Shown here piece by piece: positions 1 through 64,000 of a stretch of DNA of 64,000 bases (the first letter of the stretch is position 1; each line of letters starts with the position of its first letter). The position numbers and the translations under genes are program-made. Below the pieces are notes generated by a model, which was not told the DNA's origin, made no database searches, and worked only from the letters and a program-made list of their open reading frames with translations. This DNA is from Emiliania huxleyi CCMP1516 (Eukaryota), in contig NW_005202176.1 of assembly GCF_000372725.1 (NCBI RefSeq), forward strand, positions 42,240 through 106,239. Reading direction: 5' to 3'.

Positions 1-536
<536 letters not shown>

Positions 537-15886: not shown

Positions 15887-17625
15887 ATGTCCGACGCCGT
15901 GCTAAATTTCTCGGACTGGCTCGGCATGCTCCACGATGCGGCCGCAAAAGGCGCCGCAGACGATGCCTCGGTTCGCGAGACGGTCAACTCGATGGAAATG
16001 CTGGTTCGGTCGAGCCTCGACGAGGCACTCGCCGGCATCTGCTCTCTCTGCTTCCCGGCGGCGGCCGACGGCGGCGGTGGCGGGGATGGCGGCCTGTACG
16101 CGCTGCTGCGTGCCTCACTCCAGGGCGACACGCAGCTGAAGAACCTCGTCGACCTGCGGTGCGAGGTGCTCCGCTTCCTCGAGGTGCTGATTGAGGAGCA
16201 CGTGCTCGAGCGGAACCTCGAGCGGAACCTCGGCGTGCACATCCTCGCCATCTTCGACGCGTGCACCCTCACCTTCCGCAAGGAGCGCTCGAACAAGGTG
16301 CGCGAGCTCTGTTTCCACCCGCTCGTCTACTGCCTCGACCTGCGGGACAAGTGCCCCGAGCGGCACGCGCTCGCCGACCGGATCTTCGGCTCCTCGATGC
16401 GCGACAAGATCCGCAACCCCGCGCTCGTCGACCAGCTCTGGAACCACCTCTCTTCCTCGCCGTCTGCCTCCACGCCCACCCTGCGCGGCGGCTGCTTCAA
16501 GCTGCTCGGCACCGTCGCCCGCCGCTTCCCGGTCGAGACGTCGGTCGACAAGCGGTTCGAGGTGCGGCACCCGACGTCGCTCTACCACCGCGCGATGAAG
16601 ACGCTGCAGGCCCAGACCGACTCGGCCGCGCCAAAGCTGCCCGAGGTTGCCGGCGCCCTCTCCGGCCTCGACGGCCTCCTCATCGACGCAGAGCTGAAGC
16701 CTGCAGACGTCGAGCTCGTGTTCGAGGTGGTGCTCAAGTGTCTCTCGGTGGACCTCGACGAGGTGAAGCGGTACACGATGCCTCGCGCCGCGCTGACCTG
16801 CCTCGGGAACAACGTCCCCGTCTTCGCCGCCCAGACGCCCGCACTCGTCGACGGCGAGCCCGCGCCAAGCGCCTCGGCGTGAGGGCTCGGGCGGCCTGCC
16901 TCGCAGCTTCCGCGGAGCCTCACCTGGTAGGCGAGCTGGTGGAAGGGCCTAGGCTGGCGGACTCGCTGCTGCTGCGGAGGGCGGCGGACCTCTGGCCGCC
17001 CCTCAAGCGCCTCGCCTCGCACTCGAACCAGTTCCTCCGCCCAAGGAGGGGGCCGCGTGCTGTGAGCAGCGCCTCTCTTCACAGCTGCAGCCGTGTGAAC
17101 AGGTACCTGCGCCCCCTCGCGGACGGCGTGCTGCGCGAGGTGCTGCACGCCCTCGCAGGCGAGCTCGCCGCTCGCAGCGAGGCGGCAAGGCGCAGGCGGC
17201 GTCTCTGCTCACGGCTGTGTTCACGGCTGTGTGCGTGAGCAGGCCAGCTCGCCGCCGCCTACGAGGCAGGAGGGGCGCTGCGCGACGGAGCCGTGGCGAT
17301 GTACAACACGCTCCTGCGCGCGTTCCGCGAGATGGAGACTGCCGCGGAACGCGGCGAGGAGGGAGGGCGCGGCGAGGAGGGAGGGCGGGGCGAGGAGGGA
17401 GGGAGCGGCGGCGCGACTCGGCCGGCGGCGGCGCAGACGCTGCGGATCGGCGGGATCGTGCGGCTGCGGAGCGAGCTGTCGCCCGCCGTGGCGGCTCTGA
17501 GCGGCGTGGAGAAGGCCGGAGAGCAGCTGCGAGGCAACCGCCGCACGCCCGCAGCGGAGAGACAACTCACTAACTCGCTCACTCACTCACTCACACTCAC
17601 TCACTCACACACACACACACACGCG

Positions 17626-17700
<75 letters not shown>

Positions 17701-20700
17701 CTGCCTCCCGCCCCGCCCGCAGACCTCTGCCAGTTTGCGGCCCGCTTCTTCGCGCCGCACGCGCAGCCGCGCTCGGCTGAGGCAGGGCAGACCCTCTCCG
17801 GCCGAGCGTTCGAGCTCCCAACTTCCGAGGTGTGAACAGCGCTTCTTCACATCACTTGCTGTGAATAGGCCGAGCGTTCGAGCTCCCAACTTCCGAGGTG
17901 TGAACAGCGCTTCTTCACATCACTTGCTGTGAATAGGCCGAGCGTTCGAGCTGCCCAACTTCCTCGAGGCGTTCGCGCTGCTGCTGCCCCACGCGCCGAC
18001 CGGCACCGCGGGCCTGCTCGAGACACTGCACGAGCTGCTCTACCTGCTGCACGAGTACTACGGCGTCCTGCAAAAGAAGCACCGCGCGCACGCCGCCGCC
18101 GCCACACAGCTGCTCTTCTCCGCCCTCGCCGGCCGCGGCGACGAGCTCGACCTCCTCCTCGGCCGGCTTGTCTACCCCGCCCTCACGCTCGCAATCGACT
18201 CCATCCCCGACGTCGCCGCCGGCAGCGGCTCCGCCGGCAGCGGCGTCGCCTCTTCGGCTGACGACGGCGGCGGCGAGGACGGCGGCGGCGGGGGCGGGGG
18301 CGGCGGCGGCGGCGTTGTCCACCTCGCAACGTATCTGTGGGTGCCCGTCCTCGACCCACTCTTGCGCCCGCCGGAGCGGTTCGAGGGGCAGGCGCGGCGG
18401 CGCGGAGAGAAGAAGTACGCCAAGGCGGCGGGCGGGTGGCGCGGCAGGGCGGGCGAGGGCGCCGCAGCCGCGGGTCGAGAGGAGACGTGCGCGCAGACGC
18501 TCGAGCACGTGCTCAACGCTCTGACTCGCATGATCGGTACGCTCGACGTGAGCGCCATCGCGGCCGCGGAGGAGGAGGAGGAGGAGGAGGCGCCCCTGGA
18601 TTCCGCTCCCGCTCCTATCGCCGACGCCGCCGACGCCGCCGACGCCGCCGACGCCGCCGACGCCGCCGACGACGGCACGGAAGGGCTGCTTGCTCCCATG
18701 GGCGATGGCGCCATCAAGCAGTCCAAGAGCGGCGACGTCGCGGTCTTCCTCAAGCTCGTTCACTTTTGCGAGGCGCTGCTGCCGGCGCTGCGGCCGAGCT
18801 TGCTGCACCGGTGGCTGCACGTCCTGCTGATGGACCTCGTCACCAGGGCCTCGCGCGCGCCGCACGTCTCGGGCTTCGCGAAGCTTCTCCGCACGCTGCT
18901 CCAGACGTGCGCACGCTGCAGCTACTTCGACCCGCCCGCCACCTCACCCGGGACGAGCGACGCCGCACCAGCCGCCGCCTCCGAGGCCGCCGAGGCCCGG
19001 GCGGTCGCAGGCTCGGCAGACTGCAACCGCGAGCGGTGCTACAGCATGCTGCGCGCCTACCTCGTCTCGCTGCTGGCTCGAGCGCGGCGGCTCAAGGACG
19101 AGCTCTTCGCGGCGGTGGTCAACCTGCTGCTCGCCGCGCCGCTGCGCTTTGTCGGGGAGCAGCTTCGCCGGCCGAGCCCACCGCTGGTGGAGCTGCTCCG
19201 GCACGCGCTCGCCCTCGGCCACGCCTACCTGCCGCTCGCCCTGACGGCGCTCAGCGCGCTCGAGAAGTGGATGGCCGAGCTGCAGCCGCTCCTTCAGCCC
19301 CACTTGCCCGCGCTGCTGCCCGCGCTGCGCGAGTACCTTACCGTCGACGCATCGGAGACGGCCGTCGCAACGGCGCGCGTCGGGGGCGCGCTCGGCGACA
19401 AGGTTGGCCGGCGGATGCTCGAGCGGACCGGCAACCGGCGGAAGCGGCGGTCGCGCGAGCAGCACAGCGAGGAGGAGCGGCTCCAGGCGCGCGTCGTGCA
19501 GCTGCTCGGGCGGGTGGGGGGGGAGGTGGTCCTGCTCGTGCAGCCCGGGGGCGGGGGCGGGGGCGGGGGCGGGGGCGGGGGCGGGGGCGCGCGGTGGGAC
19601 CTTGAGGAGCGCGTGGCGTGGGACGTCCCTCTCGAGGAGGAGAGGGACCTGAGCGTCCACCTCGACACGATCCTGCCCCGCGTGCTCGAGCTCGCGACCT
19701 CGTCGCTGCAGTACCGCGAGAAGGTCGCCGCGTGCGAGCTGCTCGAGGCCAGCGTCAAGCTCTGCGTCGGCATCAATGCGAACGCGCCCGCCGGCAACGC
19801 GGCCGCCGCTGACTTCGGAGCAATCAACCGGCGGCTCTACCCGGCGCTACTGCGGCTGGCCACCGACGCCGACGGCTTTGTGCGCCGTCTCTTCGAGCCG
19901 CTCACGCTGCAGATCATCCACTGGATCGTCAACCCGCAGCGCGCCGCCGCGGCGGACTCGATGACGATGCTCGACGCGTGCGTCGCCGCGACGGGCGACA
20001 CGGAGCACGCGGGGCTGCGCGAGTTTGGCGCGCGCTGCCTGGGCGAGTTTGTGGCCTACTCGATCAAGCACAAGAGCAAGACGAGCAGTCGCTCGCCGCA
20101 CGCGGTCCGGTCGCTCCTCGTGCGGCTCTACGCCCTCGCGCGCCACCCGGACGGGCTGCAGCGCCTCTCCTTCGCCTTCGCCATCGGCGCGTGCTACAGG
20201 CAGCTGCGCGAGGACACCGACTCGCTCGACGAGTCTCTGCTCGAGCTGATCCACAACACGCTCCTCGCGCTGCGCCTCGCGCAGGACGACGCGCCCGCGC
20301 TCGGCACCGCCGACCAGCTGTGCGGCGTCCTCGCCCACCTCAAGAAGATGCTGCTCCGCACCGCGGACAGGCTGCGCCGGGCCAACCCGCGCCGGCCGAT
20401 GTACAAGGCAGGGCTCGACGGGCCCGAGGGCCGCGCGCCAACGGCCACACTCCCGGCGCGGAGGAGTGAAACGCGCTCACCACGTTGCCCCCCGAACGGC
20501 AGGCTTCGCTCGCTACCTCCTCGCGCAGAGTGTGACGCCGCACGCGCGTGCTCGCCTGGAGAGCAGCCGCCTCTTCGAGGAGGTGTGCGCGCTCCTCGCG
20601 GAGGGGCAGGCAGTCCGGCCCGCCGCCGCGTCGTCCCGATGGGTCGCCAGCGCGCTCGCCTCGGCGACGGTGCCGCGGCTCCCGGTCGTCGAGCGCCTCG

Positions 20701-23700
20701 CAGCCGCCCCGTGGCGCCAGCTCGCCGCCGGTGCCTGCGGCTCTCGCCCTCGCGAACCCCCTCGTCGCAGTGTTCGAGCCCCGAGGCGCTGTCCTGTAGG
20801 CCCGCCCGCCGGCGGCCGCGAGCTCGCGCCGTGGCTGGTCGAGGCGCAGGCGGCGCTCGACGCGACGTTCTGGTCGCTCAAGCAGGGCCACGCGCCCTAC
20901 TCGGCGCTGCTACGGCCGGGCGGCGAGCTGCACGCGGCACTCGGCATCCTCAACGCAGTGCTGCGCGGCGCGCCGCCCTCGGCGCCACCCCTCGGCTGCG
21001 CGCTCTTCGAGGCGGCCGACGCGAGCGTTGCCGAGCCCGTCGCCCCGCTACGCGGCGCCTTGCTCTCCGCGCTGCGGTTCGTCAAGGAGCTCCAGCGGCA
21101 GGCGGCGCACACGGAGCTGCGGCTGCAGCAGCCGCTGCTCCACGTCGACGAGCCGGCGGCGCGCGATTGCGCCCTCCTCGCCGCGCTCGCGCCGGCGCGG
21201 CTGGGTTTCGAGCTCGGTGTTGTGGCGGCGCCCTACCGCCGGGTGCGCCAGCTCGCTTGCGAGGTGTGTCCCGGCCCGGCCCGCCTCTTGCTCCCGCCAC
21301 CCCTCCCGTTGGCCCCGGTCGCGCTTTCCGCCCCCGCGCATTGGGCCGAGGCCGCGCTCGGCCGTGCAGGTGTGCATGCGCAGCCACGCTCGCGACGCGG
21401 CGGCGTTTGTCGGCGCCGTGCAGCGACTGGTGGGCGCGCCGCTCGAAGCCCTTACGACGGCGGAGCTCGGGCGTCGCGACGGCTCCGGCGACACTCTGTC
21501 CCAACAGGCCCTGGCCGACGGGCTGCTGCACCTCCGCAGCGTTGGCCGTGCGGCAGCCGAGGCTTCGCTGCCCCGCGATGCGAAGTCTTACGCCGCGGCG
21601 CTCGCCGGTCGCGTACTCCAAGCGCCCGCGTCGCTGCGGCCGCTGGAGCAGCCGCTCCTGGAGACGTGCTTTGAGCTCGCCGTCGATCTCGGCCACTCGC
21701 CGCTCTCTCTGCTCCGGTCGATCGACGAGTCGTGCGCGGGGCGGCTCTTCTTCCAGCGCTTCCGCGCCAAAGTCGTCAGCTGCCTCATGGACGTGCCGGC
21801 CGATGGCGTCGAGCAGGCGGTCGATTGCATCATCGCAGCGGCGAGTGGGAGAAACGACCTGCCGGGCGCGCCGCTCTGGCGGCTGCTGCTCGTGTGGGTC
21901 GAGCAGCTCGAGAGGCGCCGCGACAAGCCGTCCGAGCCTCTCGTGCGCGCGATCGACGCGCGCCTCCCGCCCCTCTTGTCGCGGCCAGCGTGGCCGGACC
22001 CGGCTCGCACCGACGGGATGCTCGCCCTCGCGCGGCGGCTCATCGGGCTGGGCGCGCACCTGGTGCTGCTCGCCCCGGGAGGGAGCTGCTTGCTCGACGG
22101 GCTGCTCTGCCTGCTGCGCGCCGACAACGGCCTGCCGACTGCCGACCGGCGGCGCGCTGTGGTGGAGGTCTTCAAGCTGCTGCCGCAGCTGCTGAGGTGG
22201 CTCCGGCCGTCGGGTGCTTCGGCGGGGCGCCTCGGGGCGCTGGTTTGCGCGGTGCGGGCTGTGTTGGACAACGAGGTGCCGTTGAGCTTCAGCGAGCTGA
22301 CTCCCGCCCGGCGGCACGAGGTGCAGGAGCTGCTGCGGCCGGTCCTCGACGCCGTCGCCGACCCGCTCGTGCGGTCGCGCGAGCTGCTGCTTACCGTCCT
22401 CCGGCTCGAGGCGGTGCGCGAGCCGCAGCTCGGAGCCGGCCACGCAGAGGCCGCCGCAGCGGGTGCTGGTGGCGAGGCCCGCGGCGCGAGGAACGGCCAG
22501 CGCGAGGCGGTGCGCGCCGCCGTGCGCGACATGGTCCGCGCGGTGGTCGCAAAGGCGCCGTCGGGCGGTGGCGGCGCTGCGGGCGTCAGCGCGCCGGAGC
22601 TGTGGGCGCTGTGCGTCGATCGCGTCTGCGGGCCGGCCGACCCCGGCAGTGGCGGTGCGGACTGGCAGGAGAAGATGCTCCTGCTCGAGTGGGTCTCGGT
22701 GCCGCTCTGCGAGGAGATGGCCTCCGCCGAGAGCCTCACCGAGCTCGTGGCCGCCACCATGCCGGCGCTCGCGTCTCTCTGGAGCGAGACCGACTGGCCG
22801 AGCCGGCTGCCCGCGCCGGAGGACGCGCTGTCCGCCGCGCTGGTGCGGCGGCGTGCCGCCTTCGAGTGGATCGGCATGCTGATCGCCCGCGTGCCAAAGT
22901 CGTCCTTCGAGCCCGGCGGCAGGCTGCTCGAGGCGGCGGGCGCGAGCGGGCTGCCCGACCTCAAGAAGCTCTTGATTGAGCAGTGTGGCACGGCGGCCAA
23001 GGAGAGGCTCCCTCTGTCGCGGGAGCCCACGCCTCGCGTGGCCGCGCTCAAGCGGCTGCTCCACACCGCGGCGTACGGCGGGTACGTCAACCTGATCGTG
23101 CACACGCAGTCCAAGCCAGAGGTCGTCTCAAAGCTCCTCTTCAACTGGAAGAAGCTGTGGGAGAATGCCGCGCCGACCGCGGCCTTCAGACTGGCGCAGA
23201 CCCCGGACCACCCCACCGAGCGTGGCTCGAGCCTCGCCCGTCGGCCGGGGGCGCCCCGCGCGACGACTCGCGGCGGCGGCGGCGGCGGCGGCTATCTGCC
23301 GTCGCAAGCGCTGATGTCCAGCTCCCTGTCGCAGGGCGCGGACGACCTTGGCTCCGGCGGCGGCGGCGGCGATCCCATGGCCGCCGCGCCGCACGCACTC
23401 GGCCGCGCGCACACGCAGAGCTCTCAGGCCCACTCCCAGTCCCAGAGCTCCGACGGCGACGCGCCCGACGGCCGGCCGGCACAGCGCGGGCCGCAGCAGC
23501 CGGAGGAGGGGGAGTGGCAGCGGGAGCAGCAGCGGGAGCGGGAGCGGGAGCAGCTCTTCGCCGACGACCCGGAGCGTGTCGGCGAGCTCGCCTCCGCCAC
23601 GCTCGAGATGGACGCCCTCAACAAGGAGCCGCTGGTGCAGCTGCTGCTGCGCGCCGTCGACCAGGTGAGGCAGCGTGGCCTCGAGGCGCGGGGGGAGGGC

Positions 23701-25579
23701 GGCATGCCGGTGTGGATGGGCCGGCTGCTCGACACGCTCTCCAGCAGCTCCGCGACGTACACGACCCGGCTGCTCGTCGCGAGGCTCGTCTACGACCTCC
23801 GCAACTTGCCGCTCGAGCCGCTCGAGCCGGCAGGGGGGGAGGCCGCCTCGCCGGCCCCGGGCACGAAGAGGCTCTTTGCCGACCACGCCCGCCGGTGGTA
23901 CAAGCCGCTCGCGCGGCTGGTGCTCGAGAGCCTCCACGCCAACGGCTGCTTCCACTACCTCGCGCACGACCTGCTCCAGCTGATGGGCAGCTGGCCCGCC
24001 GAGGCGGTGGACGAGGCGGACGGCGAGCTGCACGCGCTGCTGGGCCACGTGCTGGAGAAAGGGATGCTGCTCTGCAACGACAAGCGAGGGCCCGTCCTGG
24101 CCGAGAACGTGCGCACGCTCAAGCTGCTGCTCGGCCGCTGGGCCCCGCGGCTCGGCGCCAAGCTGCCGCTGCGCCGCCTCCTCATCCTCAAGCAGCTCAA
24201 GGCGCGCAGCAAGGGGGACGAGGCCAGGGAGGTGCAGTGGCGCAAGGCGGCGCTCCACCTCCTCAACGCGCTGCTCGCCAACCACCTCCCTCTCGCAGAC
24301 GACGAGGCCGCCACGACCATCCCCGGCGGCCACTGGACGCGCCTCATGCCGCCCGGCAGCCCCGCGCTCGCCAACGCCCCGCCCGCGGCCAGCGACGCGT
24401 ACACGCCCGTGGGGCCGACCGAGCTGCTCGACGCGCTGCTGAGCTGCGTCAAGCACGCGCGCAAGGCGGTGTACGACCCGGCCGCCACCGTGCTCGGCCA
24501 GGCGCTCGCGAGCCTGGGCGGCTCTGCGGCGGCGGACAAGCTGCCCGCCTGCGAGGAGAACGTCTTCAAGTACCTGTCGGAGCTGAGCATGTCCGACTAC
24601 ACGCAGGCGGGCACCAGCCGGCTGCTCGTGCTGCTCGACCACCTCTCGGAGGGGTACCCGCGCCTGCTCGAGCTGCGCGGCCGCCTGCTGGCCGTGTGGG
24701 CTCGCAGCAAGCTCCTCGAGGTCCACGGCGATGGGCGCGCAAACGTGCTGCGCTGCATGACGCACGCCGCCGCGCGCGAGCGCAGCGGCGCCGGCCAGGA
24801 GGAGCCCGCGCCGCTGCGAGGCGGCCCCGAGGGCGTGCCGCCGGTGACGACGAGCGTGACGAAGGAGGTGTGGGAGGGGCTGCTCTCGCAGCAGCAGCCC
24901 GAGGTGCAGCACGCCTCGCTCCGCCTCCTCCTCGAGCTCGCGCAGCACCGCCCCCTCGACAAGCTCTGGCCGCTGCTGCCCGCCCTCGACGCCGCTCTCG
25001 CGCGCCACCGAGCGGTGGACTGCCGCGCCCTCTACCACGAGCTGCTCATCCGGCTGCGCGAACGCGCAGCGGAGCCCGGCGCCGCGGTTCCCGACGCGGC
25101 GAGTGAGACCCTGCTCCGCTCGGGGCTGCTCGTCGGGCTGTGCGACCCCGACGAGACGAGGAGAGAGGCGATGCTCGGCTACTGGCACGGCCAGCTGCCG
25201 CGGAGCATGGCCGCCCGGCTCGTCGCGTGCTTTGAGACCCTCTACGCGCCGGCGGTGGAGGCGCAGTGGCTGCACATCTCGACGCTGCTCCTCCTGCAGC
25301 TGGTGCACGGGGCGCCCAACCGGCACAAGACCATCTTCGTCAAGACGCTCCTCGACACGAGCAGCTTCCAGCCCGTCGGCAACCTGGCGCCCACCCGAGG
25401 GAGCGCCTCGCTCGCCATGCTGCCCTGGGGCCACGAGTTCTTCTCGCAGAGCCAGCCCGCCTCGCAGGACGCGGGCGAGGGCGGCCCGCTCCGCGCGACC
25501 CAGTCCCAGCTCTACTCGCAGACGCAGACGCAGGACCAGCTCGGCGGCGTCCCCGCCACCTACAGCTCGCAGGCGGCCG

Positions 25580-25621
<42 letters not shown>

Positions 25622-28600
25622 TGCAGCGGCGGCGTGCGGCTCTGCCGCCGGTGCCCGCCTTCGGTATGGGCAGCAGCCAAGCCGCGATGTCTGCTGGCGC
25701 GGGCAGCTCGCAGGAGCCGGACGGCGAGCGGCCGGTGCGCGACCGGCGCAGACGCAACCTCGTGGCGGCCAACGCCAGGCGCAGCAACGCACAGAGCGGC
25801 GCTGCGCGGCAGCGGAAGGTGCAGCTGATGCGCACGTACCGGGCGGGCGAGGTGCCAGACATTGCGCTGTGCGCGCTCGACTTCGTCGCGCCGCTGCAGT
25901 CGCTCGCGCGGCACGACCCGGTGGTCGCCAAGAACGCGCTCGTTCACCTCTACCGCGCCGTCCGACAGCAGCGCCTCGAAGGCGCGGGGGCGGACCAGCT
26001 GGTGCGGCCGCGCCTGCGGGCGTGGGCGGCGGTACCACACGCCGTCTCGACGTCTACGCTTCCTCCGCTGTAGGCGAGGCTCCACGCCGGCGTGGCTGCT
26101 CTGCTCACGTCGCGCGCGGGAGGCACCGCCTTCGTCGGCTGCCTGCACGAGCTCGCTCTGACCGAGGAGGGGGCGGGTGGGGCTGTGCCCGCTGATGTGA
26201 GGCACCCGCTGAGCCCGCTCGCTCCCCCCGCGTAGGACGACACGTCGGGCTGGCTCCGCCCGGAGGACGTGAGCGAGTCGGCGGAGCGCACCGGCACGCT
26301 GCACTCGGCGGCGCGGCTCATCGAGCGCCACATCGTCGCGGCGGCGCCCGCAGCTCGCCCTCAGAAGCGAGCCCGCGACCTCGCCTCGGCTGCGGCTTCG
26401 GGCGGCGAGCGCGAGGTGCGCGTCCTGCTGATGGAGATCTACCGCCAGCTCGCCGACGAGGATGTTGTGCGCGGCGCGGCGGCCGCGAGCACTCCCGCCC
26501 TTGCCGAGGGAGGCGCCTCTCCAGCTGTCGCCCTCCCGCTGTAGGCTTGGCGGCGGAGGTTGCCGGCGTGACCGAGTTGCGCGACGCGCTCTCCGCCGAG
26601 GCGCGCGGCGACTCCCTCGAGGCGCTGCGGCTGTTCCAGAGGGCGAGCGGCAGCCTGGGCGAGTCCGGCTCCGCGTCGGCGTCGGAAGAGCTGGAGCTCG
26701 CCCAGCGAGGGCGGCGCGCGTGCCTGCTCCGACTCGGGCGGTGGGGCGAGCTGCGCGCGGCGACGGAGGCGCTGGTGCAGCCGGGCGGTGACGGGCTCGG
26801 GACATGGCGCGAGAGCGCGCACGAGCCGTGGGTGAGGATGCTGCTGGTGAGCCGGGCAAAGGAGGGCGCCGCGGGGCAGGGCTGGAGGAGCTGGGTCGAG
26901 GAGCGGGCGGAGGGGGCGGCGGGCGGGGCCGGCGAGGCGTGTGCTCCTCACCCCGTCCGCGACAGCAGCTTGTTGCTCGATGCCGGCCTCGGCGCTCTCC
27001 TCGTCCTCGATCGGCTCGCCGCCGGCAGCGAGGACGGCGCTCGGTCGCTCCTGCCCGGCTGCGTCCAGGCCTTTGTCAGCCGCTGGGCCGCGCTGCACCC
27101 GCGCGCGACGATGGTTCGACTCAAGGAGCTGGAGCAGCTGCAGCTGCTCGCCGAGGTGTGGACAGCGCTGCTTCACACCTCTTGCTGTGAACAGGAGCTG
27201 GAACAGCTGCAGCTGCTCGCCGAGGCCAACGAGCTGCTCGACGTGCTGAAGCGACCGCTGCTCGCAGCGGCGGGTACCGGCCGCTGGGTCGCGACTGACG
27301 CCGTCGCCGCGCTCGCGCGCACGTGGTCGGGCCGCTACCCGAGCAGCTCCCAGCACGGCGCCGCGGTTTGGGACGACGTGGTGAGCAGCCGCGCGCTGCT
27401 CTTCTCCGTGCTGGAGCGCCGCCTCAACGAGGCGCTCGACGCCGTCGACTTCGACGACGAGGACGAGCGCGCGGCCATCCGTCAAGGCTCGCTCGGCGCC
27501 GCCAAGAGGTGCATCGCCGAGTCGCACGAGCGCGCCGCGCGCGCGCTCCGCATGCAAGGAGACTTCGAGCCCGCGAAGGGCCACCTGCTCGCGAGCATGG
27601 CCCTCCGCAAGGCGGACCCGAAGTGCTTCGGGCCGGTGAGCGTGCAGTTCCAGGCCGGCCTCCTCCAGCACACGGTCGCTAAGGCTCGCGCCAGCCGCAA
27701 CTCGGGCGAGCTGCTGCAGATCTGGCAACAGGTGCGCCGGCCGGATGGGCCCCGCAACGCCAGTCTGGCCCTCCCCACCCCTGAAGCGCTCTCTTCGACT
27801 GCAGGGGGCGAAGCTACACGACATGTACGCATCCAACCCGCCGGAGGAGCGGTGCGAGCTGGCCGAGCTTCAGGCAGAGGTTGTGCAACTGATGCTCGAC
27901 GGCGGCGATGCCGACGAGGGCGAGCGCCTGCTAACAGAGGTCATCGAGAGGCTGCGCTCGCTCCTCGACTCGCCCCTCGCCTCGCCCGCCGCCCTTGCGC
28001 CCGCGCGGCTCAAGCTCGTCGACCTCTGCTCCGCCTCCCTCAAGCGCGGGCACGAGACACGCGGCGTCGACCTCGCCCGCGTCGCTGTCGCCGAGGTTGT
28101 GCGTGCGATGGCCGGCGGCTCGCTCGCGGCACGCGACCGCTTCCTCACGGTGGTAGGCCCTAACCTGACCCCAAGTCTGACCTAACCCTAACCCTAGGCG
28201 CGGGACCGCCTGCTCACGGTGCTCGCGCTGCTGCGCGGCCGCGCGGAGACGTGGGAGGAGACGGGCGCCCAGCTGCTGACTCCGCCCGCCTGGATGATGC
28301 TCAAGTGGACATGCCAGCTCCTCGCGCTGCTCAACGAGCCGCACGGCGAGTGCGTCGCGCCCCTCCTCGAGCGGCTGGCGGCTGCCTACCCGGCTGCCGT
28401 CTACCACCCCTTCCAGCTCAGCAAGGAGTCGGTCTCGCGCAAGCCACGCCTCGCGCCGCGCGTCGCCGCCACGGTGCGAGCCATGAGCGCCGTGCTGCAC
28501 AGCCCGCGGCTCGAGGCCCTGGCGGCCGCGTTCGAGGACCTCACGCACCCCGAGCTGAGGTACAAGGACCTGCTCGAGACGCTGACCGACCTGCTCAAGG

Positions 28601-30722
28601 AAGGGCGGGTCGAGGAGGCGCGCGCCAGCTACGTCGAGCTCACCCGCTGGCTCCGCGACCCGAAGCGCGGCGGCTTCCTCGCTGACTTTGCCAAGGCCAA
28701 GGTGGGCAGCCAAGGCGAGCGCACCCTCCAGAAGCTCGACGGTCTGTGCGGCGTCGACGGGCAGCACCTCGGTCGCTTCGTGGGGAGCGGGGGCGGACCG
28801 CCGACCCTGCAGAGGGAGCTCAATCGGGTCGGCATGGGCTGGAGGAAGCTCGAGGAGGTGTCGCAGGTGTGGGTCAAGGGCAACAAGCAGAGATCCACCC
28901 GGCTCGAGTCGTACTCGCCCCTGCTCGCAAAGTACCACCGCGCCGACGAGGCGGGCGGCGACCCGCTCGAGGCGCTCGAGCTGCCGGGGCAGTACGATGG
29001 GGACGCGCCGCCACTGGTCGACCAGCACGCGGCGGCAGACAGCTTTGACGCCGAGCTGCTCGTGATGGCGTCGCTCCGCAAGCCCAAGCGGCTGACCGTC
29101 TACTGCTCGGACCAGCGCGAGCGGCGCTACCTGATCAAGGGCGGCGAGGACCTGCGGCAAGACCAGCGCATCCAGCAGATCTTTGCGGTGGTCAACACGG
29201 TGCTCGCAGCCGACGGACAGTGCGCGACGCGCGGCCTGGCGATGCGGACGTACAGCGTGCTGCCGCTCAACGAGCGGGTCGGCTTCATCGAGTGGATGGA
29301 CGGCACGCAGCCGCTCGGCAAGCTGATCGAGAAGGTTGCAAGGGTGAAGCACCGGGGTGGGCAAGATCCGATCAGTATGGCGGCGACCAAGTTCGCCGCC
29401 GCCTACCCCTTGGCCAGCAAAGGCCAGCTGCCGAGGTGGGCCAGCTGCAGCCGGAGAGACGCGGAGCAGCACCTCGCTGATGCGCACGCTCTGTTGCCGG
29501 CCGACCTCCTCTCGCGCGGCATCGAGTCGCTCTCCGTCGGTGCGCGCTCCCACACGAGATGCCGCAACCTAAACCTCCCGCACGTCGACATCCACGCTCG
29601 GCTCGCCTCACCCCCTCTCCCCCCCCCCCCCCCCCCACACACCACCACCCCCCTCCTCCTCCCTCCTCCTCCCTCCTCTGCAGGAGCCGAGTCGTTCCTC
29701 GCGACCCGCTCCTGCTTTGCGCGCTCCCTCGCCGTGGTGACCGTCGTCGGGCACCTCCTCGGCATCGGAGACCGCCACCTCGAGGTGCGGCTGTACCTTC
29801 TGCTTCTAGTGGTGGGTCACCCTAGTCCTTACCTGTACCTGTCACATGTGAACTAGAACTTCATGGTGGAGGAGGCGAGCGGCCGCGTCGTCGGCATCGA
29901 CTTTGGCCACGCGTTTGGCTCGGCGACCCACCAGCTGCCACAGCCGGAGCTGATGGGCGTGCGGCTCACTCGCCAGCTCACCTCCTTCCTCCGGCCGCTC
30001 GACTCGGGCGTGCTGCTCAAGGGGCACATGGTGCTCGTGCTGCGCACGCTGCGAGCCCAGCGCGACGAGCTCCTGCGCGTGATGGACGTGTTTGTCTCCG
30101 AGCCGAACGTCGATTGGGCGAAGCAGGCGCGCACACTCGCTCGTCGCCTCGCTCGTCGCCTCGCCGCCACGCCACCCCACCCGGCCCCTCCCTCCTATCC
30201 CTCCTACGCCCGCTCTCGCCTCGCCCAGCGCCCCACCCAACGCCGTTTTCGGCAGGCGCGCAAGCTGGGCGAGGCGCAGCTGGCGAGCGTGCTCGAGCCG
30301 TCCGAAGGTGAGAGCCAGGCGTCGACGGTGGTGGCGAGCGAGGGCGGCGGCGCCGCCGACGGCGACAGGGACGCGGCGTGGGCGCGCAACCGGCTGGCCT
30401 CAGTGGTGTCCAAGCTGAGCGGAGGTAACGCCGCCCACATCACCGAGGCTGAGCTGCGGCTGAACCCGGTGGCCGCCAAGCCCGCCACCTTCGACCGGCT
30501 GGTCGAGATTGTACGCGGACCGGCAGACAGCTTGCGCCGCCAACTGCCCGCCACCGCTCTGACCCCGGAGCAGCAGGCGCGCTGCGGGCCTCGCTACCGC
30601 CCCCCGCCACGCACACGCTGACCTGGCTAGCCCCCTCGCCATAGGTTGACGTGCTGCTCGAGCTTGCCACCGATCCGAACGTGCTGGGCCGCACGTACCA
30701 CGGGTGGAAGCCGTGGCTGTGA
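15887..30722 (+). CDS. PRKDC: DNA-dependent protein kinase catalytic subunit (PIKK family), multi-exon
   Basis: HEAT-like N-terminus; LDTILPRVLELA...KVAACELL; YRAGEVPDI; kinase motifs KGGEDLRQDQRIQQIF, GIGDRHL, GIDFGHAFGSAT..LP.PELM..RLTRQ; FATC end ATDPNVLGRTYHGWKPWL*; more than 15 short introns. Confidence 0.95.
17031..17102 (+). other. Intron (72 nt, GT-AG) carrying the CTTCAC..TGTGAACAG module
   Basis: Removal restores the frame (NQ|YLRPLADG); its 5' part resembles the downstream exon start. Confidence 0.75.
17801..17936 (+). other. Intron made of two identical 68-nt units (exon-start copy + module), GC-AG
   Basis: gccgagcgttcgagctcccaacttccgag+gtgtgaacagcgcttcttcacatcacttgctgtgaatag twice; exon resumes gccgagcgttcgagctgcccaacttcctcgag (RAFELPNFLEAF). 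Confidence 0.85.
27126..27194 (+). other. Intron or insertion: 30-nt exon duplication + 39-nt module (GA donor if the whole 69 nt is spliced)
   Basis: gagctggagcagctgcagctgctcgccgag is repeated with one mismatch on each side of gtgtggacagcgctgcttcacacctcttgctgtgaacag. Confidence 0.8.
28129..28197 (+). other. Intron (69 nt, GC-AG): 24-nt exon-start copy + telomere-like CCCTAA tract
   Basis: gcacgcgaccgcttcctcacggtg vs exon gcgcgggaccgcctgctcacggtg; ends cctaaccctaaccctag; contains an in-frame stop, so must be spliced. Confidence 0.85.
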
Positions 30723-31704
30723 GATGCACTTCCGCCTTGCAAGATAAACATCTCTACTCTCTGCATTTTTCGTCATGTGTTGATGTGTATACGCAAGTCT
30801 GTAACGTACGGGCAGTCTCTCGGTGTACGGCTTTACCTACCTTACCTCCTGTCACATATTACCGTATGAACTATATCACAACTACTGGGCTGGGTTTTTT
30901 TAGGCATTGTGGGGTTGGCACTCCCATCGACCCTCATGACCTCCTGCGGTCTCTGAGATGGACACCAGTAGGTGTGGGACCATAGCCAGGGTACACTCGA
31001 AGGCTGGGTAAGCAGTAGAGGTCGATACTCGACGCGTCCCACATGGTCTGTGTCGCTGTCGGCACGCTGTCGACAGGACGTCGAGCGACACCGGTGGCAG
31101 TGCCACCCAGGAGTGGTCGGGCGGTCTCCCGTCATGAGAGAGCCACCATGTGATCCGTATGATGATTCCTGACAACCGCCTCAGTCAACTTTCGTCACAG
31201 TTCCCGCTCTGAGAGGAGCTGCGGGTCAGTTCGACAGCTGGAGCTGTGTCGCCGGCGTGCAGCGGCCTGCCTCCGGAGGTGCCTCTGAGGTGGACATTTT
31301 TTGGTCACCGTGAGAGAACGCGTTCGAATTTTCACTCCGGAACTTCAACTTCGCACGCGCACCGGCCAGGGCTACAATAGTGCCAGTGAGGCGAAGGCGC
31401 GAGTCGGAAGGCCGCGACCGTCAAGTGTTCCCCCAATTTTCCTACAATCGCTGTGAACCCAGCCTGAGCCACGTAACTCCACGACCTCTCTCCACACACG
31501 ACCCTCTCGCCGAAAAAAAAAGATACGCCGCGTTGTACATACATACACACAGAGAGAGACGGGGCAAACCATGGGGCAAAAACCAAGAGGAAGATCGAAA
31601 ATGGGGGACCCACCCCGGTCCACCTGCGACTCAGACCCCAGACAGAGAGCCGAACCTGCGAGCTGCGTGTGTCGCCCGCTGCTCCCCGCTCTACACCAAC
31701 AAGC

Positions 31705-50538: not shown

Positions 50539-50582
50539 GCACTTGGAGTGCAGTCAGTAACCTCATGCCCAGGACCGGGGAG

Positions 50583-51314: not shown

Positions 51315-51494
51315 CTCACGGGTCTAGTGAATCATAGATAGAGATTTTTAGGAGCCAACAAAAAACTCTAGGGGGCCGGGGTCGTACGTCGTGCTCGAGC
51401 GGGAAGACAGCGCGCCTTGCGACCTTGTCGGCCCAGCTGCCATCCCAGTACAAGGTGTACCCTTTCTTCTTTGTGAATCATAGACCATACGCTC

Positions 51495-51603
51495 TGAGGG
51501 AGAGATTTTTAGCAATACCAAACAACTCTAACACTCACACGTCATTTGGGGCCTGGAGCCCTGTTCACGCGCGCGCGAGACGTGCAGACAGGGTGTTGTT
51601 TGT
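51495..51603 (-). repeat. Dispersed repeat; inverted partner of 42802-42952
   Basis: Reverse-complement match by eye, with small indels. Confidence 0.85.
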
Positions 51604-56114: not shown

Positions 56115-56799
56115 TCAGTCCCGCCGGCGTCGGTCGCGGTCGCGGCTCCGCGAGCGCGAGCGCCGCCGCTCCTTCCGGTCGCGGCGGTCCCTCTCCCTGT
56201 CCCGGTCCCTATCCCTGTCCCGGGAGCGGGACCTGCGCTCCCGCCGGTCGCGGTCCGCTCCTCTCGGCGGAGGGCCTTGTGGGGCAGGGGCCGACCGCGC
56301 AGGGGGGCCGGGAGGGGGGCCGACGGCGACGCTCCACGTCCTCTCCTTGTCGTGCAGCCGGACGCCCATCCCTCGAAGCTGGTCGCGCAGCTGGTCCGCC
56401 GTCTGGAAGTCGCGGTTCAGCTTTGCGCGGTGCCTCGCCGACAGGAGCTTCTCGATCTGCTCGGCGTCGCACGGCGCGCCGACGTCGCCGACGCGCTGGT
56501 AGTCATGGCCGCCTCCGCCCCCGCGCGGCCCTCCGCCGCCGCCGCCGCCGCCGCCGCGCGGCCCTCCGCCCCCTCCTCCCGCCTCGTATGCGGGCATCGC
56601 CTCCTTGCGCCGCCGCTTGTTCCAGAGGTGCGAGACGGACTGCGAGAAGTCGACCTAAGGTGAGGTAAGGTAAACTTCTCCACACACACGAGGTGGTGGG
56701 GCAAGGGGGGGCGACCCTCGCGTCTCCACGTCTAACGACACGAGCGCCGCGGCATTCAAAGTGCAAGGCCCAGTGCGCGTGGGTGAGCGGTGTGTGTGT

Positions 56800-56872
<73 letters not shown>

Positions 56873-58035
56873 GTCGACCTTGATGCGGCGGTCGTCGATG
56901 AGAGCGCCGTCCATCTTGAAGTAGGCCTGCGTGCACGCCTCCTCCGTCTCAAACTCGATGAAGGCGTAGTTGAGCGAGTCGCCTGAAGCCGGCGCGGGGG
57001 CGGGGTCGGCGGCGCTGGCATCGCGGCGTCCGAGTCCCCTCGGCGGCTACGGCGCCCGTCTTGAAGTCGCGGATCACCTGCTCACAGCAGACGGCGTGAA
57101 GCGCGCCTCCTCACCGCAGCTCGCCGCCCCGCCGCCGCGGCGTCGCCTCGCACGAGGTGATTGCGCCGAAGCGGCCAAAGATGATGTCGAGGTCGTCGTC
57201 CTCTGTCACCGGGTTGAGCTTGCACACAAAGAGCACATTCTTGGGCGGCTCGACGTCCGCGTCGGGGAGGTCGCCCAGCATCTCTAGCACCTCCGCGCGC
57301 GACTTGGCCGCCTTGACGCGCAGCGCCTCGTCCTGCGCCGCCTATCCACACGCTCGTGCGCCGGTGGCGAGGGGGACGCCTCGACGCTGCGCCGCCGCCG
57401 CCCTGCGCGACCGGGTCGTCCTCGCCGTCGCCGCCCAGCTCCTCGTCGTCGGCGAGGCGCTCGCGGTCCTGCTGCCGGTGCAGCTCCGACGGCGGCGGAG
57501 ACGCGTCCGGCACCTCGAGCCCCGGCGGGTCGTCAAACGGGTCGTCGAGCACAATCGTGTGCCTCACGCGGATGTTGCGGAAGGGGCGGCCGTCCGGGTC
57601 GCAGTAGGCGGCGCCGATCTTGCGCGCCACGTCGAGCCCCTCCGCCACCTCGCCAAAAATTGTGTACTTGTCGTCGAGGTGCTCCTGCGCGTGGTCGCCC
57701 ACCGTGATGAAGAACTGCGAGCCGTTGGTGTTGGGGCCGGACGAGGCCATCGAGACGACGCCGGCGCGGTCGTGGCGGAGGGAGCGGCGGAACTCGTCCT
57801 CGAAGAAGCGCGCCTGATCGCCGTACAGCAGCCCGTAGAGGGAGGAGCCGCCCGTGCCCGAGCCGGTCGGGTCGCCGGTCTGGATCAGCGCGCCGGCCTG
57901 CACGTTGTGGAAGAGGCAGTGGTTGTAGTACTTGACCTTGCACAGCTTGAGGAAGGACTTGCACGCGATGGGCGCCTCCTCCGTCCGCAGGTCTATCACG
58001 ATGTCGCCGACGCTGGTCTCTAGGAGCACGCTCAT
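56115..58035 (-). CDS. PPIL4: Cyclophilin-RRM protein (PPIL4/CYP59) with RS/RD tail; introns 57342-57411, 57078-57146, 56983-57055, 56655-56878
   Basis: [90 protein letters not shown]. Confidence 0.95.
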
Positions 58036-61690: not shown

Positions 61691-62580
61691 TTTTTGACAC
61701 GACAAGGGCGCAGCCTGGGAGAGAGATTTTTGAAAACCAACAAGAAATCACGCCTCTCACAGTGATTTGGGCTCGGCAGCTTGTCAGCCCTTCGAGTCAG
61801 CCCTCAGCCGAAGCTGGGGCCGGTCCCGTAGCCGAGAGAGCCCGCGTCGATGAGTTCGACGTGGTCGGGGGGCCTTGCGGAGAGGCCAGCGAGTTGGCGA
61901 TCGCTGTACTTCATGGGGGTCATCAAGTGACCGCGACTGACAAGCCAGAGGTCGATACTCTGGACGACCCATTGGATGCCACGAATGCCTGAAGGAGAGG
62001 GAGGCGAGGCCAGAGGCAGACTCAGCTGCTCTCGGGTGATCTCGCTTTGGGAGAGAGAGACAGACAGAGAGATTTTTTTTCGCTTTGGTGGCTGAAGGCC
62101 CGATGGTCCTGTCATTCGCGTTCCGAGTCGTGGGGGTAGAAGATTGCGGGGGGGGGGGGGGGGGGTCGTGTCAGCACTTCCTTGAAGTACAGCGGACCGC
62201 CAGGCTCGCCGGCAGCATCCGCAGGGAGGCAGCATATCAGGCACCAGTCTTCTGGATGGAGAGCTTGACACGAGCCACAGCCGCGGTTCTTTGAGAGACT
62301 GAGAGAGAGCTTTCGGTTCTTTCGGACTGGCGGAGACAAAAGAAAAGTTTTGAGTTGTTCATACCGTCGTCCCCCTGCCTGTGTCCCTGATCGTCCTTCC
62401 AAGCACCTGCTTTTATTTCTACTCTCGTGAGCTGTGAACAGACGCACTTGCCTTCGGGGGCAAGTACCCAAATCCGCTAGGTTGGGCGTGCTTTCACAGC
62501 ATCGCGCGAGTATTTTATTTCCCGTCGTGCAGCACTGTCGACGGCGTCCACTGTGACCGCAACCCGACCTGGATACACAT

Positions 62581-64000
62581 ATGCCCTCCTTCGGCGGCGG
62601 CACTCGGCGCCGCCTCGCTGCCTTCCCAGGCGCCAGTGTTCCTCGCGGCGCCGGCACGCGCCAGCTCCTGACCACCGTGATTGCTCTCTTGGGCGTCGCG
62701 CTCCTCCTCCTCCAGGCGTCCTCCGTTTTCACGCCTAGGAATCCTACACGGATTGCACCCGAGCCCTCACCCCGCGTGGAAGCAAAGCACGGATTGCATC
62801 CTCGCTTTCCTCGCGTCCTCGTGCCGATAGCGGCGAACCGCACCGGCAACTCATCGCCGGGCGCACCAGGACCGGCGGTCGTCCTCGGCGGGCCTTACCT
62901 CGTCCTCGGCGTCGCGACCGCGCCGCGCAACACGGGCCACCGGCAGTGGATCCGCGAGACGTGGATGAGCCTGCCCAACATCGCTCGAGGCATCGACGAC
63001 GACGCGACGCTCGCGGAGCTCAAGGCCCTCGGGGCCACGGCGGTGCGCGCATCGGCCTCGCCAACCTCCAGCGTGCGGACCTTCTTCCTCGTCGGAGCGG
63101 CGGTCGCCGCCGCAGACCTCGCCGAGGAGCAGGCGCGGGAGAGGGACATCGTCGGGGTGGACGCGCGGGAGACGAAGCCGCCGGGCGAGAAGATGTTTGC
63201 CTTCTTCCAGCTCTGCGCGAGAGCCTTTGCCCGCACCTCCCGATGGTGCATCAAGACAGGTGTGCCCCCGCCTCCGCCTCCCCCTCACTCGCCTCCTCCT
63301 CCTCTTCCGCCGCCGCCGCCTCCGCCTCTGCATCCTCCGCCTCCCCCCCTCCCCCCCCCCCCCTCCGGCCGTGGCCATGCAGCATGGCCTATCACTAAGT
63401 CGAGCATCGCCCGCTCGACAGATGACGACACGTACGTGCACTCGGTCCGACTCGAGCTCAACCTGCGAAGCCTGTGGGACTCGACGCCGCCGCAGGAGAC
63501 CTCCCCGCGGGCGGCGTCGCCGGCGGCGGCACCACCGGCGTCAGCCGGCGGCGGCGTGGCCGATCGCTCGACGGGCGGCGGCGCGGGCGGCGGCGCAGGC
63601 GGCGGCGCGGGCGGCGGCGCGGTGTACGTGTACGGCGGCGCGACGCTGTGGGCGTCGTACGTCAAGCGGTCCTTCCACGTGTGCGGGCACGGGATGGGCC
63701 CGATGATGGCGGCGGGCGCGTCCAGGACAGAGGGGTGCGCGGCGCAGGGGGCCGTCGGCCCCTTCCCGTATGCCGCGGGCGCGCTCGAGGTGCTGTCGAT
63801 GCCGCTGGCGCGCTGTGAACAGCGTCTCTTCACAGCACGCCGCTGTGAACAGGCACGCTCGAGGTGCTGTCGATGCCGCTGGCGCGCTGGGTCGTGTCTC
63901 AGCCGGCGGTGGTCGAGTTTGTGCGCCGCGCGCGCGGCAGCGGCGTCCCCTCAAAGTGGGACATCGGTGCGCGCGGGGGGGCGACATTGGGACTGGGGAA
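62581..64000 (+). CDS. GT31 (Galactosyl_T) beta-1,3-glycosyltransferase, type II membrane; runs off the window; introns 63260-63421 and 63779-63852
   Basis: TM LLTTVIALLGVALLLL; LGVATAP....RQWIRETW; FFLVG; IKT|DDDTYVH; FPYAAG|TLEVLS; absent from the supplied ORF track. Confidence 0.88.
   Translation, partial: MPSFGGGTRRRLAAFPGASVPRGAGTRQLLTTVIALLGVALLLLQASSVFTPRNPTRIAPEPSPRVEAKHGLHPRFPRVLVPIAANRTGNSSPGAPGPAVVLGGPYLVLGVATAPRNTGHRQWIRETWMSLPNIARGIDDDATLAELKALGATAVRASASPTSSVRTFFLVGAAVAAADLAEEQARERDIVGVDARETKPPGEKMFAFFQLCARAFARTSRWCIKTGVPPPPPPPHSPPPPLPPPPPPPLHPPPPPLPPPPSGRGHAAWPITKSSIARSTDDDTYVHSVRLELNLRSLWDSTPPQETSPRAASPAAAPPASAGGGVADRSTGGGAGGGAGGGAGGGAVYVYGGATLWASYVKRSFHVCGHGMGPMMAAGASRTEGCAAQGAVGPFPYAAGALEVLSMPLARCEQRLFTARRCEQARSRCCRCRWRAGSCLSRRWSSLCAARAAAASPQSGTSVRAGGRHWDWG

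What the first reader, a model, noticed from the sequence alone, without database searches (positions are those of the whole stretch)
16854..63852. Introns that begin with a copy of the next exon: apparent intron gain by ~25-37-bp duplication plus an inserted 3' splice module
Seen in many unrelated genes: introns of ~68-84 nt whose first 24-37 nt resemble the first bases of the downstream exon. The copies span an age series. Near-perfect: 27126-27194 (30 nt, 1 mismatch), 63779-63852 (~37 nt, 1 mismatch), 17801-17936. Moderately decayed: 28129-28197, 17159-17242, 44272-44339, 57342-57411 (-), 32218-32286 (-). Strongly decayed: 16854-16930, 17031-17102, 8375-8445, ~20430-20502, ~26474-26544, ~30577-30643. 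The donor dinucleotide is generally what the duplicated exon starts with (mostly GC, sometimes GT or GA), which would explain the excess of non-canonical donors. Established: known Introners are DNA transposons with TIRs and TSDs of only a few bp, and repair-associated intron gains have short flanking repeats. Inference: a distinct route in which a staggered cut about 30 bp wide is filled with a short acceptor-bearing insert, so the upstream duplicate becomes the intron 5' half and coding sequence is restored exactly.
Basis: partly seen in the sequence, partly recalled or inferred. Interest (0 to 1): 0.9.

Follow-up and report, generated by a model that had tools for sequence, protein, structure and literature searches.

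The report
Introns built from long target duplications
In the coccolithophore Gephyrocapsa, over a hundred sampled short introns consist of a 15-40-base copy of the start of the next exon followed by an intron tail that in some cases matches another intron, likely because a staggered DNA cut is filled by copying an existing intron's end, which would be a little-recognised way of making new introns.

Summary
The host is Gephyrocapsa (Emiliania). 10 of the 14 cited introns beat controls; 6 of those are shown spliced by RNA contigs or a transcript protein. A 38-nt intron-end module recurs in at least 120 metagenome loci. At 88 of 104 distinct sites it follows a 15-43-nt copy of the downstream exon start (controls 0.4%). 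Total length is 68.9±3.4 nt. 29 of 30 unrelated inserts (AT-rich, 10-11-nt repeats) have the same build and a length of 60-79 nt. Two daughter introns carry exon-derived sequence of their parent intron. Three insertions lie antisense to the gene, and one duplicate spans an older intron-exon border. So these are insertions with long target-site duplications, copied from other introns, with a fixed AG end and a fuzzy other end. Most likely mechanism: target-primed reverse transcription of intron RNA (0.4); rivals are templated break repair and a Replitron-like HUH transposon. No enzyme was identified and no empty allele was seen. E. huxleyi Introners are already catalogued, with TSD unresolved. 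I did not find the long duplication described.

The parts
63779..63852 (+). 74-nt GC-AG intron candidate: 63779-63815 copies 63853-63889 (36 of 37 match), then the module 63814-63852
   Evidence: p=0.002; module hairpin z=-3.1; splicing not tested
27126..27194 (+). 69-nt GA-AG intron candidate in DNA-PKcs: 27126-27156 copies 27195-27225 (1 mismatch), then the module 27157-27194; in frame and stop-free
   Evidence: homologue test inconclusive; indirect hint only: no 1.2-kb RNA piece spans it
17801..17936 (+). two identical 68-nt units (duplicate with two small deletions plus module; modules 17831-17868 and 17899-17936); tandem expansion of one intron
   Evidence: same site in L095 also tandem
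28129..28197 (+). 69-nt GC-AG intron: 24-nt duplicate plus a telomere-like (CCCTAA-type) insert
   Evidence: RNA pieces of X11 and X13 begin at 28197
17159..17242 (+). 84-nt GC-AG intron, decayed duplicate plus decayed module
   Evidence: RNA skip of 84 nt; p=0.002
17031..17102 (+). 72-nt GT-AG intron, decayed duplicate plus module variant
   Evidence: RNA skip; p=0.007
16854..16930 (+). 77-nt GC-AG intron, decayed duplicate
   Evidence: RNA skip of 77 nt placed 2 nt left; p=0.005
32218..32286 (-). 69-nt GT-AG intron, decayed duplicate plus module variant
   Evidence: RNA skip in X11 and X13; p=0.002
57342..57411 (-). 70-nt GT-AG intron in cyclophilin-RRM gene, decayed duplicate
   Evidence: boundaries fixed by P0006; p=0.002; position read through in 8 genomic homologues
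56655..56878 (-).
   Evidence: p=0.002
57078..57146 (-). 69-nt GC-AG intron with decayed module; duplicate no longer significant
   Evidence: (p=0.36)
44272..44339 (+). 68-nt GC-AG intron candidate with gapped duplicate, in an F-box-like ORF
   Evidence: p=0.002; splicing not tested
8375..8445 (+). 71-nt GC-AG candidate, duplicate borderline
   Evidence: p=0.050
20430..20502 (+). 73-nt GC-AG intron; duplicate not distinguishable from chance
   Evidence: p=0.137; RNA piece ends near 20429 and 20501 inferred
26474..26544 (+). 71-nt GC-AG candidate; duplicate not distinguishable from chance
   Evidence: p=0.167
30577..30644 (+). 68-nt GC-AG candidate (end corrected by +1); duplicate not distinguishable from chance
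   Evidence: p=0.414
15888..30723 (+). host gene: DNA-PKcs (9 of the 14 cited introns lie in it)
   Evidence: Pfam DNA-PKcs_N, CC1-2, CC3, CC5, FAT, PI3_PI4_kinase; ends read
56115..58035 (-). host gene: cyclophilin-RRM (PPIL4/CYP59-like), four introns

Best explanation
These introns are a 15-43-nt duplicate of the insertion site plus an inserted intron tail that in two cases carries its parent intron's sequence, and they likely arise by target-primed reverse transcription: a nicked DNA end would prime on the 3' end of an existing intron's RNA, copy it backwards for about 35-55 nt, and rejoin at a second nick about 28 nt away. Shown: the duplicate; the fixed AG end; the variable other end with parental sequence; both orientations; about 69 nt net gain; removal of the whole 65-84 nt from RNA. 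Inferred: two staggered nicks leaving 3' overhangs; priming by a few matching bases at the AG|G junction; microhomology joining at the fuzzy end; fill-in creating the duplicate. Selection then keeps inserts whose duplicate starts with GC/GT/GA, or contains AG|G, and whose length suits the spliceosome. Slippage between the duplicates would give the tandem introns (8 of 88) and could also delete an intron precisely. Any intron can serve as template; the hairpin module is a prolific lineage (roughly 1,500 copies, a rough depth estimate). The RNA template and the enzyme (a LINE- or Penelope-type RT acting in trans) are untested.
For: Duplicate 88/104 vs 0.41% of controls, anchored at exon +1 in 78/88. 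Parent-daughter pairs L014->L109 and L083->L001 share 21-23 nt of the parent's exon-derived sequence and the same module variant, with microhomology at the join. The fixed end sits at the template's 3' splice site even in 3 antisense insertions, where splicing does not select it, and there the target supplies CAG or GAACAG matching the module end (L058, L120, L023). Unrelated inserts share the geometry: 29/30 at 60-79 nt with 35-160 scanned, duplicate median 25.5, length 68.9±3.8. This argues for a sequence-blind copier rather than one transposase-specific element. Variable TSD, fixed 3' end and truncated 5' end are the recalled hallmarks of non-LTR insertion; variable long TSDs of LINEs are described in PMC9977147 (passages). 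PLEs can carry intron-containing RNA in trans (PMC8557442 passages). RNA removes the full 68, 71 and 65 nt at L075.
Against: No RT was linked to these inserts, and there are no poly(A) tails. In L109 the match at the fixed end runs 7 nt into the parent's next exon, which needs unspliced RNA, a circle or DNA rather than a plain excised intron. All 3 opposite-strand neighbour pairs share the loop variant (117-428 nt apart; 8.7% across loci), as local DNA-templated repair would give. The module has terminal direct repeats and a hairpin like a Replitron. The tight 69-nt length (rho -0.80 between duplicate and insert) is not predicted by TPRT, and 189- and 224-nt introns are spliced, so a pure splicing ruler is uncertain. 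No empty allele was seen in DNA runs X1, X10, X2 or X3. 16 of 104 module sites have no clear duplicate.
Confidence: 0.4

Rival explanations
1. Host break repair: a staggered break with about 28-nt 3' overhangs is filled in and joined by polymerase-theta-type end joining, with a templated insertion copied from DNA of a nearby or distant intron. Selection keeps the products that splice. This is closest to the first reader's idea.
For: Microhomology at both junctions. Local inverted copies in L023 and L058. Patchwork AT-rich inserts, and period 10-11 repeats in 16 of the 24 periodic inserts among 50 examined. A duplicate that spans an intron-exon border shows DNA-level duplication. Break repair with short direct repeats is a listed gain route (PMC3443670 passages).
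Against: Three of three antisense insertions start at the module's AG, although any downstream start would be tolerated there. One near-identical family at roughly 1,500 copies (rough) implies a replication advantage that random repair templates lack.
Confidence: 0.27
2. A 40-bp non-autonomous rolling-circle element mobilised by an HUH (Replitron- or Helitron-like) transposase from DNA. It has a fixed start, a hairpin-guided fuzzy end that captures parental flank, and a variable TSD.
For: C. reinhardtii Replitron-1/-N1 insertions show four signatures: oriented dinucleotide target, short terminal direct repeats, a fuzzy end from the parent's flank and variable TSD, plus an 11-bp hairpin at the fuzzy end (PMC10288648 parts 2-4). 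The module has 11-nt terminal direct repeats, a three-arm hairpin, fuzzy parental ends and exons starting GC/GT in 93 of 104. Replitron-like proteins are listed for two haptophytes.
Against: No Emiliania or Gephyrocapsa entry in that paper's 7 supplements. Unrelated inserts without these termini have the same duplicate and length. Replitron termini align over about 52 bp at each end, longer than the whole module. The hairpin is stronger than shuffles in only 1 of 4 window copies. Non-GY targets occur.
Confidence: 0.22
3. Refreshing of old introns: positions are old, the 5' half is overwritten by the neighbouring exon (for example by aborted cDNA-mediated loss), and the 3' half by gene conversion among introns.
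For: It explains the constant length directly. One AT-rich insert differs at 9 of about 46 nt between alleles while its duplicate and flanks are identical. P0009 and P0011 have different introns at what reads as one position. No empty allele was seen.
Against: Antisense modules and a duplicate that includes intron sequence cannot come from spliced cDNA. The four cyclophilin positions are read through in genomic homologues: 8/8 for intron 1, 5 for introns 2 and 3 leaving out the confounded P0009 (P0138 also passes intron 2), 2 for intron 4. Introns are packed 28 nt apart in L023.
Confidence: 0.08
4. Chance similarity in GC-rich coding DNA, or an assembly artefact.
For: 4 of the 14 cited cases are at or above p=0.05; the window is about 67% GC.
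Against: Controls 0.41%. A sharp length peak. Independent DNA runs carry the introns and RNA runs skip them. The same sites recur in separate metagenome assemblies.
Confidence: 0.01

Closest known systems
Introners (Gozashti et al. 2022 PMC9860276; 2025 PMC12130899), including their E. huxleyi families
   Same: Multi-copy intron family that makes introns on insertion and takes the donor from the TSD. E. huxleyi CCMP1516 is listed with 653 elements in five families of mean length 70 or 37 nt. In 2025 two small 67-70-nt families are classed 'Unknown', one noted '10bp terminal direct repeats, co-opt 5' carry 3''. The module from its inner GT to its AG is 37 nt, so the 37-nt families are probably this module (inference; the tables give no sequences).
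   Different: Those tables give the TSD as '?', 'N' or 2-4 nt, and the text cites 3-9-bp TSDs. Here the duplicate is 15-43 nt and makes up about 40% of the intron. One end is fuzzy and chimeric, unrelated inserts share the build, and RNA removes 65-84 nt, not 37.
Replitron-1 / Replitron-N1 of Chlamydomonas reinhardtii (Craig 2023, PMC10288648)
   Same: Copy-and-paste, one fixed end, one fuzzy end with parental flank, variable TSD, terminal direct repeats, hairpin near the fuzzy end.
   Different: Those are 0.9-3.6-kb elements with a known transposase, under-represented in coding sequence and introns and not reported to make introns. Here 35-55-nt inserts of many unrelated sequences become introns of fixed total length; no transposase is known.
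Non-LTR / Penelope-like target-primed reverse transcription
   Same: Fixed 3' end, variably truncated 5' end with microhomology, variable TSD (recalled); long TSDs in Dualen and R9.
   Different: No poly(A) tail or known partner LINE; the template appears to be an ordinary intron end; the products are precise introns.
Intron gain by tandem genomic duplication at AG|GT and by double-strand-break repair (PMC3443670)
   Same: The new intron contains a copy of adjacent exon, is flanked by direct repeats and leaves the coding sequence unchanged. The antisense cases take both splice sites from an AG|G inside the duplicate.
   Different: A foreign insert carries the branch region and acceptor. Duplicates are far longer than the short repeats of repair-type gains, and they occur genome-wide in families.
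Dinoflagellate introner-like elements (bioRxiv 10.1101/2020.10.14.339549)
   Same: GC/GA donors taken from the TSD, acceptor carried by the element, either orientation.
   Different: TSDs there are 3-8 nt and fixed per class (parts 1-2 read).

Membership tests
Introner (broad sense) | Many similar copies at unrelated gene positions | tested here: met
   at least 120 loci, 104 distinct sites
Introner (broad sense) | Copies are spliced out and restore the coding sequence | tested here: met
   RNA skips; frame kept in 40/44
Introner (broad sense) | Recent gain: empty site in orthologues or strains | tested here: inconclusive
   no empty allele in 4 DNA runs; positions read through in distant protein homologues only
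TIR/MITE-type Introner | Short fixed TSD of 3-9 bp | tested here: not met
   15-43 nt, variable
TIR/MITE-type Introner | Terminal inverted repeats and two fixed ends | tested here: not met
   direct terminal repeats (only quasi-palindromic) and one fuzzy end with 0-17 nt of filler
Replitron | Short terminal direct repeats | tested here: met
   11-nt repeat at both ends of the module; absent from most non-module inserts
Replitron | Fuzzy end from parental flank and variable TSD (C. reinhardtii type) | tested here: met
Replitron | Oriented dinucleotide target | tested here: inconclusive
   GC/GT in 93/104, confounded by splice selection; antisense cases use other targets
Replitron | Autonomous partner encoding Y1 Rep HUH transposase | not testable with these tools
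   no genome held; none listed for this genus
Non-LTR / PLE retrotransposition product | Fixed 3' end, truncated 5' end, variable TSD | tested here: met
Non-LTR / PLE retrotransposition product | Poly(A) or simple-repeat 3' tail shared with a partner LINE | tested here: not met
   inserts end at AG with no tail
Non-LTR / PLE retrotransposition product | RNA intermediate and an active RT | not testable with these tools
   only a retroelement-like ORF with RNase H in the window, unlinked
Tandem-duplication intron gain | Intron made only of duplicated host sequence | tested here: not met
   35-55 nt of foreign insert in every young case
Known structured RNA family | Rfam match | tested here: not met
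   0 matches in 6 loci

The most novel reading that the evidence does not exclude
Haptophytes run a sequence-blind intron-copying pathway: any intron's 3' end can be reverse-transcribed into a staggered cut, the cut site itself becomes the donor half, and a ruler fixes the product near 69 nt. Most of their introns, the GC/GA donors, and the 10-11-nt and telomere-like intron repeats would come from this one process. A read-through protein from an unnamed lineage (P0009, about 70% identical) shows the same build with a telomere-like insert.
Probability: 0.3. Interest if true: 0.95.

Novelty: new variant of a known kind. Interest (0 to 1): 0.82.

Why it matters
How most new introns arise is still open, and known Introners are transposons with short TSDs. 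Here about 40% of each new intron is host exon sequence, and parentage can be traced through chimeric ends. The two copies give a clock for each intron (23 of 88 still perfect). That makes intron birth, ageing, tandem expansion and precise loss directly measurable in a globally important alga with many sequenced strains. It offers a cause for the non-canonical GC/GA donors. It also warns that gene models in coccolithophores can mis-call a 37-nt GT-AG intron and leave the duplicate in the protein.

Tried and rejected
Whole genome not held, so all genome-wide numbers come from 120 metagenome loci picked by a strict full-module pattern. Viral contigs gave 0 hits for the module and for a telomere-type pattern. 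Prokaryote genomes gave 2 hits, not followed. Locus-versus-locus comparison found 11 overlaps and no empty site. The first codon model had a wrong frame and was redone. The variant-sharing count had a de-duplication bug and was redone. The homologue test of the in-frame 27126 intron was inconclusive. Pfam on short exons found nothing; the ABC-F identity of L058 came from PDB. The ETF-QO label for L023 is recalled from its motif, not from a call. Non-module inserts are not more alike within a locus than between loci (p=0.23). No insert with filler on the AG side was found, too few cases to separate RNA from DNA templates. A 37-nt splice from the module's inner GT was rejected where RNA was available (68, 72 and 69 nt removed). 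A single-sequence fold of the side ORF was useless (pLDDT 38); the alignment-based job had not finished and was not collected. Earlier scan findings: none. Papers not held: Read 2013, Huff 2014, Huff 2016. I recall that Read 2013 reports 10-11-bp repeats in E. huxleyi introns; not checked. Subscription papers, bioRxiv supplements and files 13-14 of PMC12130899 were not seen and may bear on novelty.
Full report
Host and setting. No genome is held for the window. A cyclophilin exon is 100% identical to a Gephyrocapsa oceanica transcript protein, whose cluster includes the E. huxleyi CCMP1516 protein. The host is therefore Gephyrocapsa/Emiliania. Nine of the 14 cited introns lie in a DNA-PKcs gene.

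Observation. At the cited coordinates the intron starts match the next exon. 10 of 14 beat a coding-sequence null at p<=0.007, one is borderline and three are not distinguishable from chance. RNA contigs skip four cited introns directly and start at the edge of a fifth, while DNA runs keep them. A transcript protein fixes a sixth exactly and defines three more introns in the same gene. The three near-perfect cases were not shown spliced directly; 27126-27194 is in frame and stop-free.

A shared module. Several window introns end in one motif. Of 130 matches, 117 had full flanks, 111 were not followed by another module, and 104 were distinct sites. At 88 of 104 the DNA before the module copies the DNA after it. 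Controls were 0.41% of 10,712 other-locus pairs, 8 of 102 upstream-exon stretches and 2 of 101 further-downstream stretches; 8 of the 88 sites have a tandem copy upstream. The copy starts at exon base 1 in 78 of 88 and is 15-43 nt long (median 28). The intron is 59-78 nt (68.9±3.4). Donors are GC 42, GT 31, GA 9 and other 6, with G before the donor in 79 of 88. Removal keeps the frame at 40 of 44 confident sites, and mismatches are spread evenly over codon positions, as expected if the intron copy drifts freely. 23 of 88 duplicates are still perfect. 16 sites show no clear duplicate; several are short or decayed. Depth in two DNA runs suggests about 1,500 near-consensus copies, a rough figure.

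Copied from other introns. Between duplicate and module lie 0-17 extra bases. For 2 of the 14 ungapped fillers of 8 nt or more, a long match to another intron's exon-derived half was found with the same module variant: L014 to L109 and L083 to L001. Two further 8-nt matches may be chance. The joins overlap by several bases. With about 7% of copies sampled, one or two parents is what random parentage predicts (inference).

Either orientation, DNA-level duplication. By coding potential, 59 of 88 sites are sense, 24 unclear and 5 antisense. Three antisense cases are clear on inspection; L023's was found in the flanks, and L058 had scored unclear. In L058 the gene is an ABC-F protein on the other strand and the duplicate spans an older intron end and the exon start. 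In L023, removing a reversed 68-nt and a forward 67-nt module intron 28 nt apart gives one clean frame, and the two share filler and variant. L120 takes AG|GC from the duplicate. In all three the module still ends at its own AG (one base lost in L023), and the target supplies CAG or GAACAG there. All 3 opposite-strand neighbour pairs share the loop variant, against 8.7% across loci.

Not one family. In the flanks, 30 anchored repeats lack the module; 29 are 60-79 nt although 35-160 was scanned. For 28 of these inserts the duplicate median is 25.5 and the length 68.9±3.8. Inserts are AT-rich, telomere-like or tandem repeats; 16 of the 24 periodic ones among 50 have period 10-11. At L075 an RNA run skips a 68-nt module intron, a 71-nt older one and a 65-nt AT-rich one. 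One AT-rich insert differs at 9 places between alleles while its duplicate and flanks match; this is unexplained. A read-through cyclophilin from an unnamed lineage (P0009) encodes a 10-residue frameshifted copy around a telomere-like run, about 76 nt in all. Random pairs reached at most 5 residues in 40,000, and low-complexity read-throughs reached 7-8. This is protein-level evidence only.

Gain. No empty allele appeared in four DNA runs or in 11 locus overlaps. Eight homologues at 70-72% identity that derail into introns elsewhere read through the 57342-57411 position, and subsets read through the other three. This supports lineage-specific gain but is indirect.

Mechanism. The geometry is fixed by the data: new DNA is joined at the template's AG end, runs back through 35-55 nt, ends at a variable point, and 15-43 nt of target is duplicated. 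I favour target-primed reverse transcription of intron RNA (0.40) because the fixed end is a 3' splice site even when unselected and unrelated inserts behave alike. Templated break repair (0.27) fits the microhomologies and local inverted copies. A Replitron-like HUH element (0.22) fits the module's direct repeats, hairpin and fuzzy end but not the other inserts. Refreshing of old introns (0.08) fits the constant length. Confidence in the shared core, copy-and-paste of an intron end into a long staggered cut, is about 0.85. Whether the 69-nt length is mechanical or selected is open.

What is known. Gozashti 2022 (passages and supplement rows) and 2025 (passages and supplement rows) list E. huxleyi Introner families of 37 and 67-70 nt with unknown mechanism and unresolved or 2-4-nt TSDs. 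Craig 2023 (parts 2-4 of 7 and passages; supplements) describes the closest insertion signature. Passages only: PMC11782384, PMC10996645, the G. huxleyi genome preprint 10.1101/2024.05.26.595999, PMC11282704, PMC9977147, PMC8469720, PMC3443670, PMC13518057, PMC11347835, PMC8557442. Parts 1-2 of 4 of the dinoflagellate preprint were read. Ten searches showed no description of introns whose 5' half is a long target duplication; closed-access papers were not searchable.

Verdict. Confirmed; a new variant of Introner-type gain with an insertion signature outside the catalogued ones. Interest 0.82.

Noticed in passing
window 45185-48871 (+): Intronless 1228-aa ORF. The N-half has conserved motifs resembling family-A DNA polymerase (motif reading recalled; nearest Pfam-bearing Atlas cluster DNA_pol_A 21%, score 0.84, a lead only). 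It is followed by RNase H (Pfam E=0.0013; haptophyte Atlas cluster 0.93) and a Cys/His finger. 812 homologue clusters. The domain sits beside RNase H in four homologues, and by eye inside ORFs with GIY-YIG-like and Penelope-RT-like motifs in P0219 and P0229. It may be a retroelement-borne polymerase; fold not confirmed and no link to the introns shown.
   Followed up: partly
window 42819-42952 and 51495-51594: About 130-bp inverted repeats (87-93%) bound an 8.8-kb block holding an F-box-like gene, the ORF above and a protein kinase: a possible TIR element carrying genes.
   Followed up: no
L075 1095-1140 (also 2267-2300): Run X2 differs at 9 bases inside one AT-rich insert while the duplicate and about 900 nt of flank are nearly identical; a second dense cluster of differences lies in non-coding DNA.
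   Followed up: partly
L005, L020, L032, L033, L047, L052, L056, L064, L065, L074, L075, L087, L090, L113: Intron inserts made of 10-11-nt tandem units of many different sequences, about one helical turn.
   Followed up: partly
window 28197-32752: One RNA contig runs across the DNA-PKcs 3' part (+) and the convergent gene with the 32218-32286 intron (-), suggesting overlapping 3' ends; a contig does not prove one transcript.
   Followed up: no
window 17534-17722 and about 21177-21367 (+): Long GC-donor introns (189 and about 191 nt); the first is skipped in RNA and has no duplicate, the second is inferred from piece ends.
   Followed up: partly
L039 2355-2392; L058 525-632: Module sites whose duplicate starts TG or CT. 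L058 is explained as antisense; L039 would lose one base if spliced at the nearest GT and is unexplained.
   Followed up: partly
window 50484-50584; 50583-50635 and 51265-51317: A 46-bp-arm palindrome and a 53-nt direct repeat in non-coding DNA.
   Followed up: no
window 88-598 and 1396-1841; N runs at 754-853, 2070-2169, 12561-12660: Repeated (AG)n/(AC)n blocks either side of an assembly gap, possibly a duplicated assembly segment.
   Followed up: no
window 35584-37794 (-): 736-aa ORF with no Pfam match and an internal repeat of about 100 aa.
   Followed up: no
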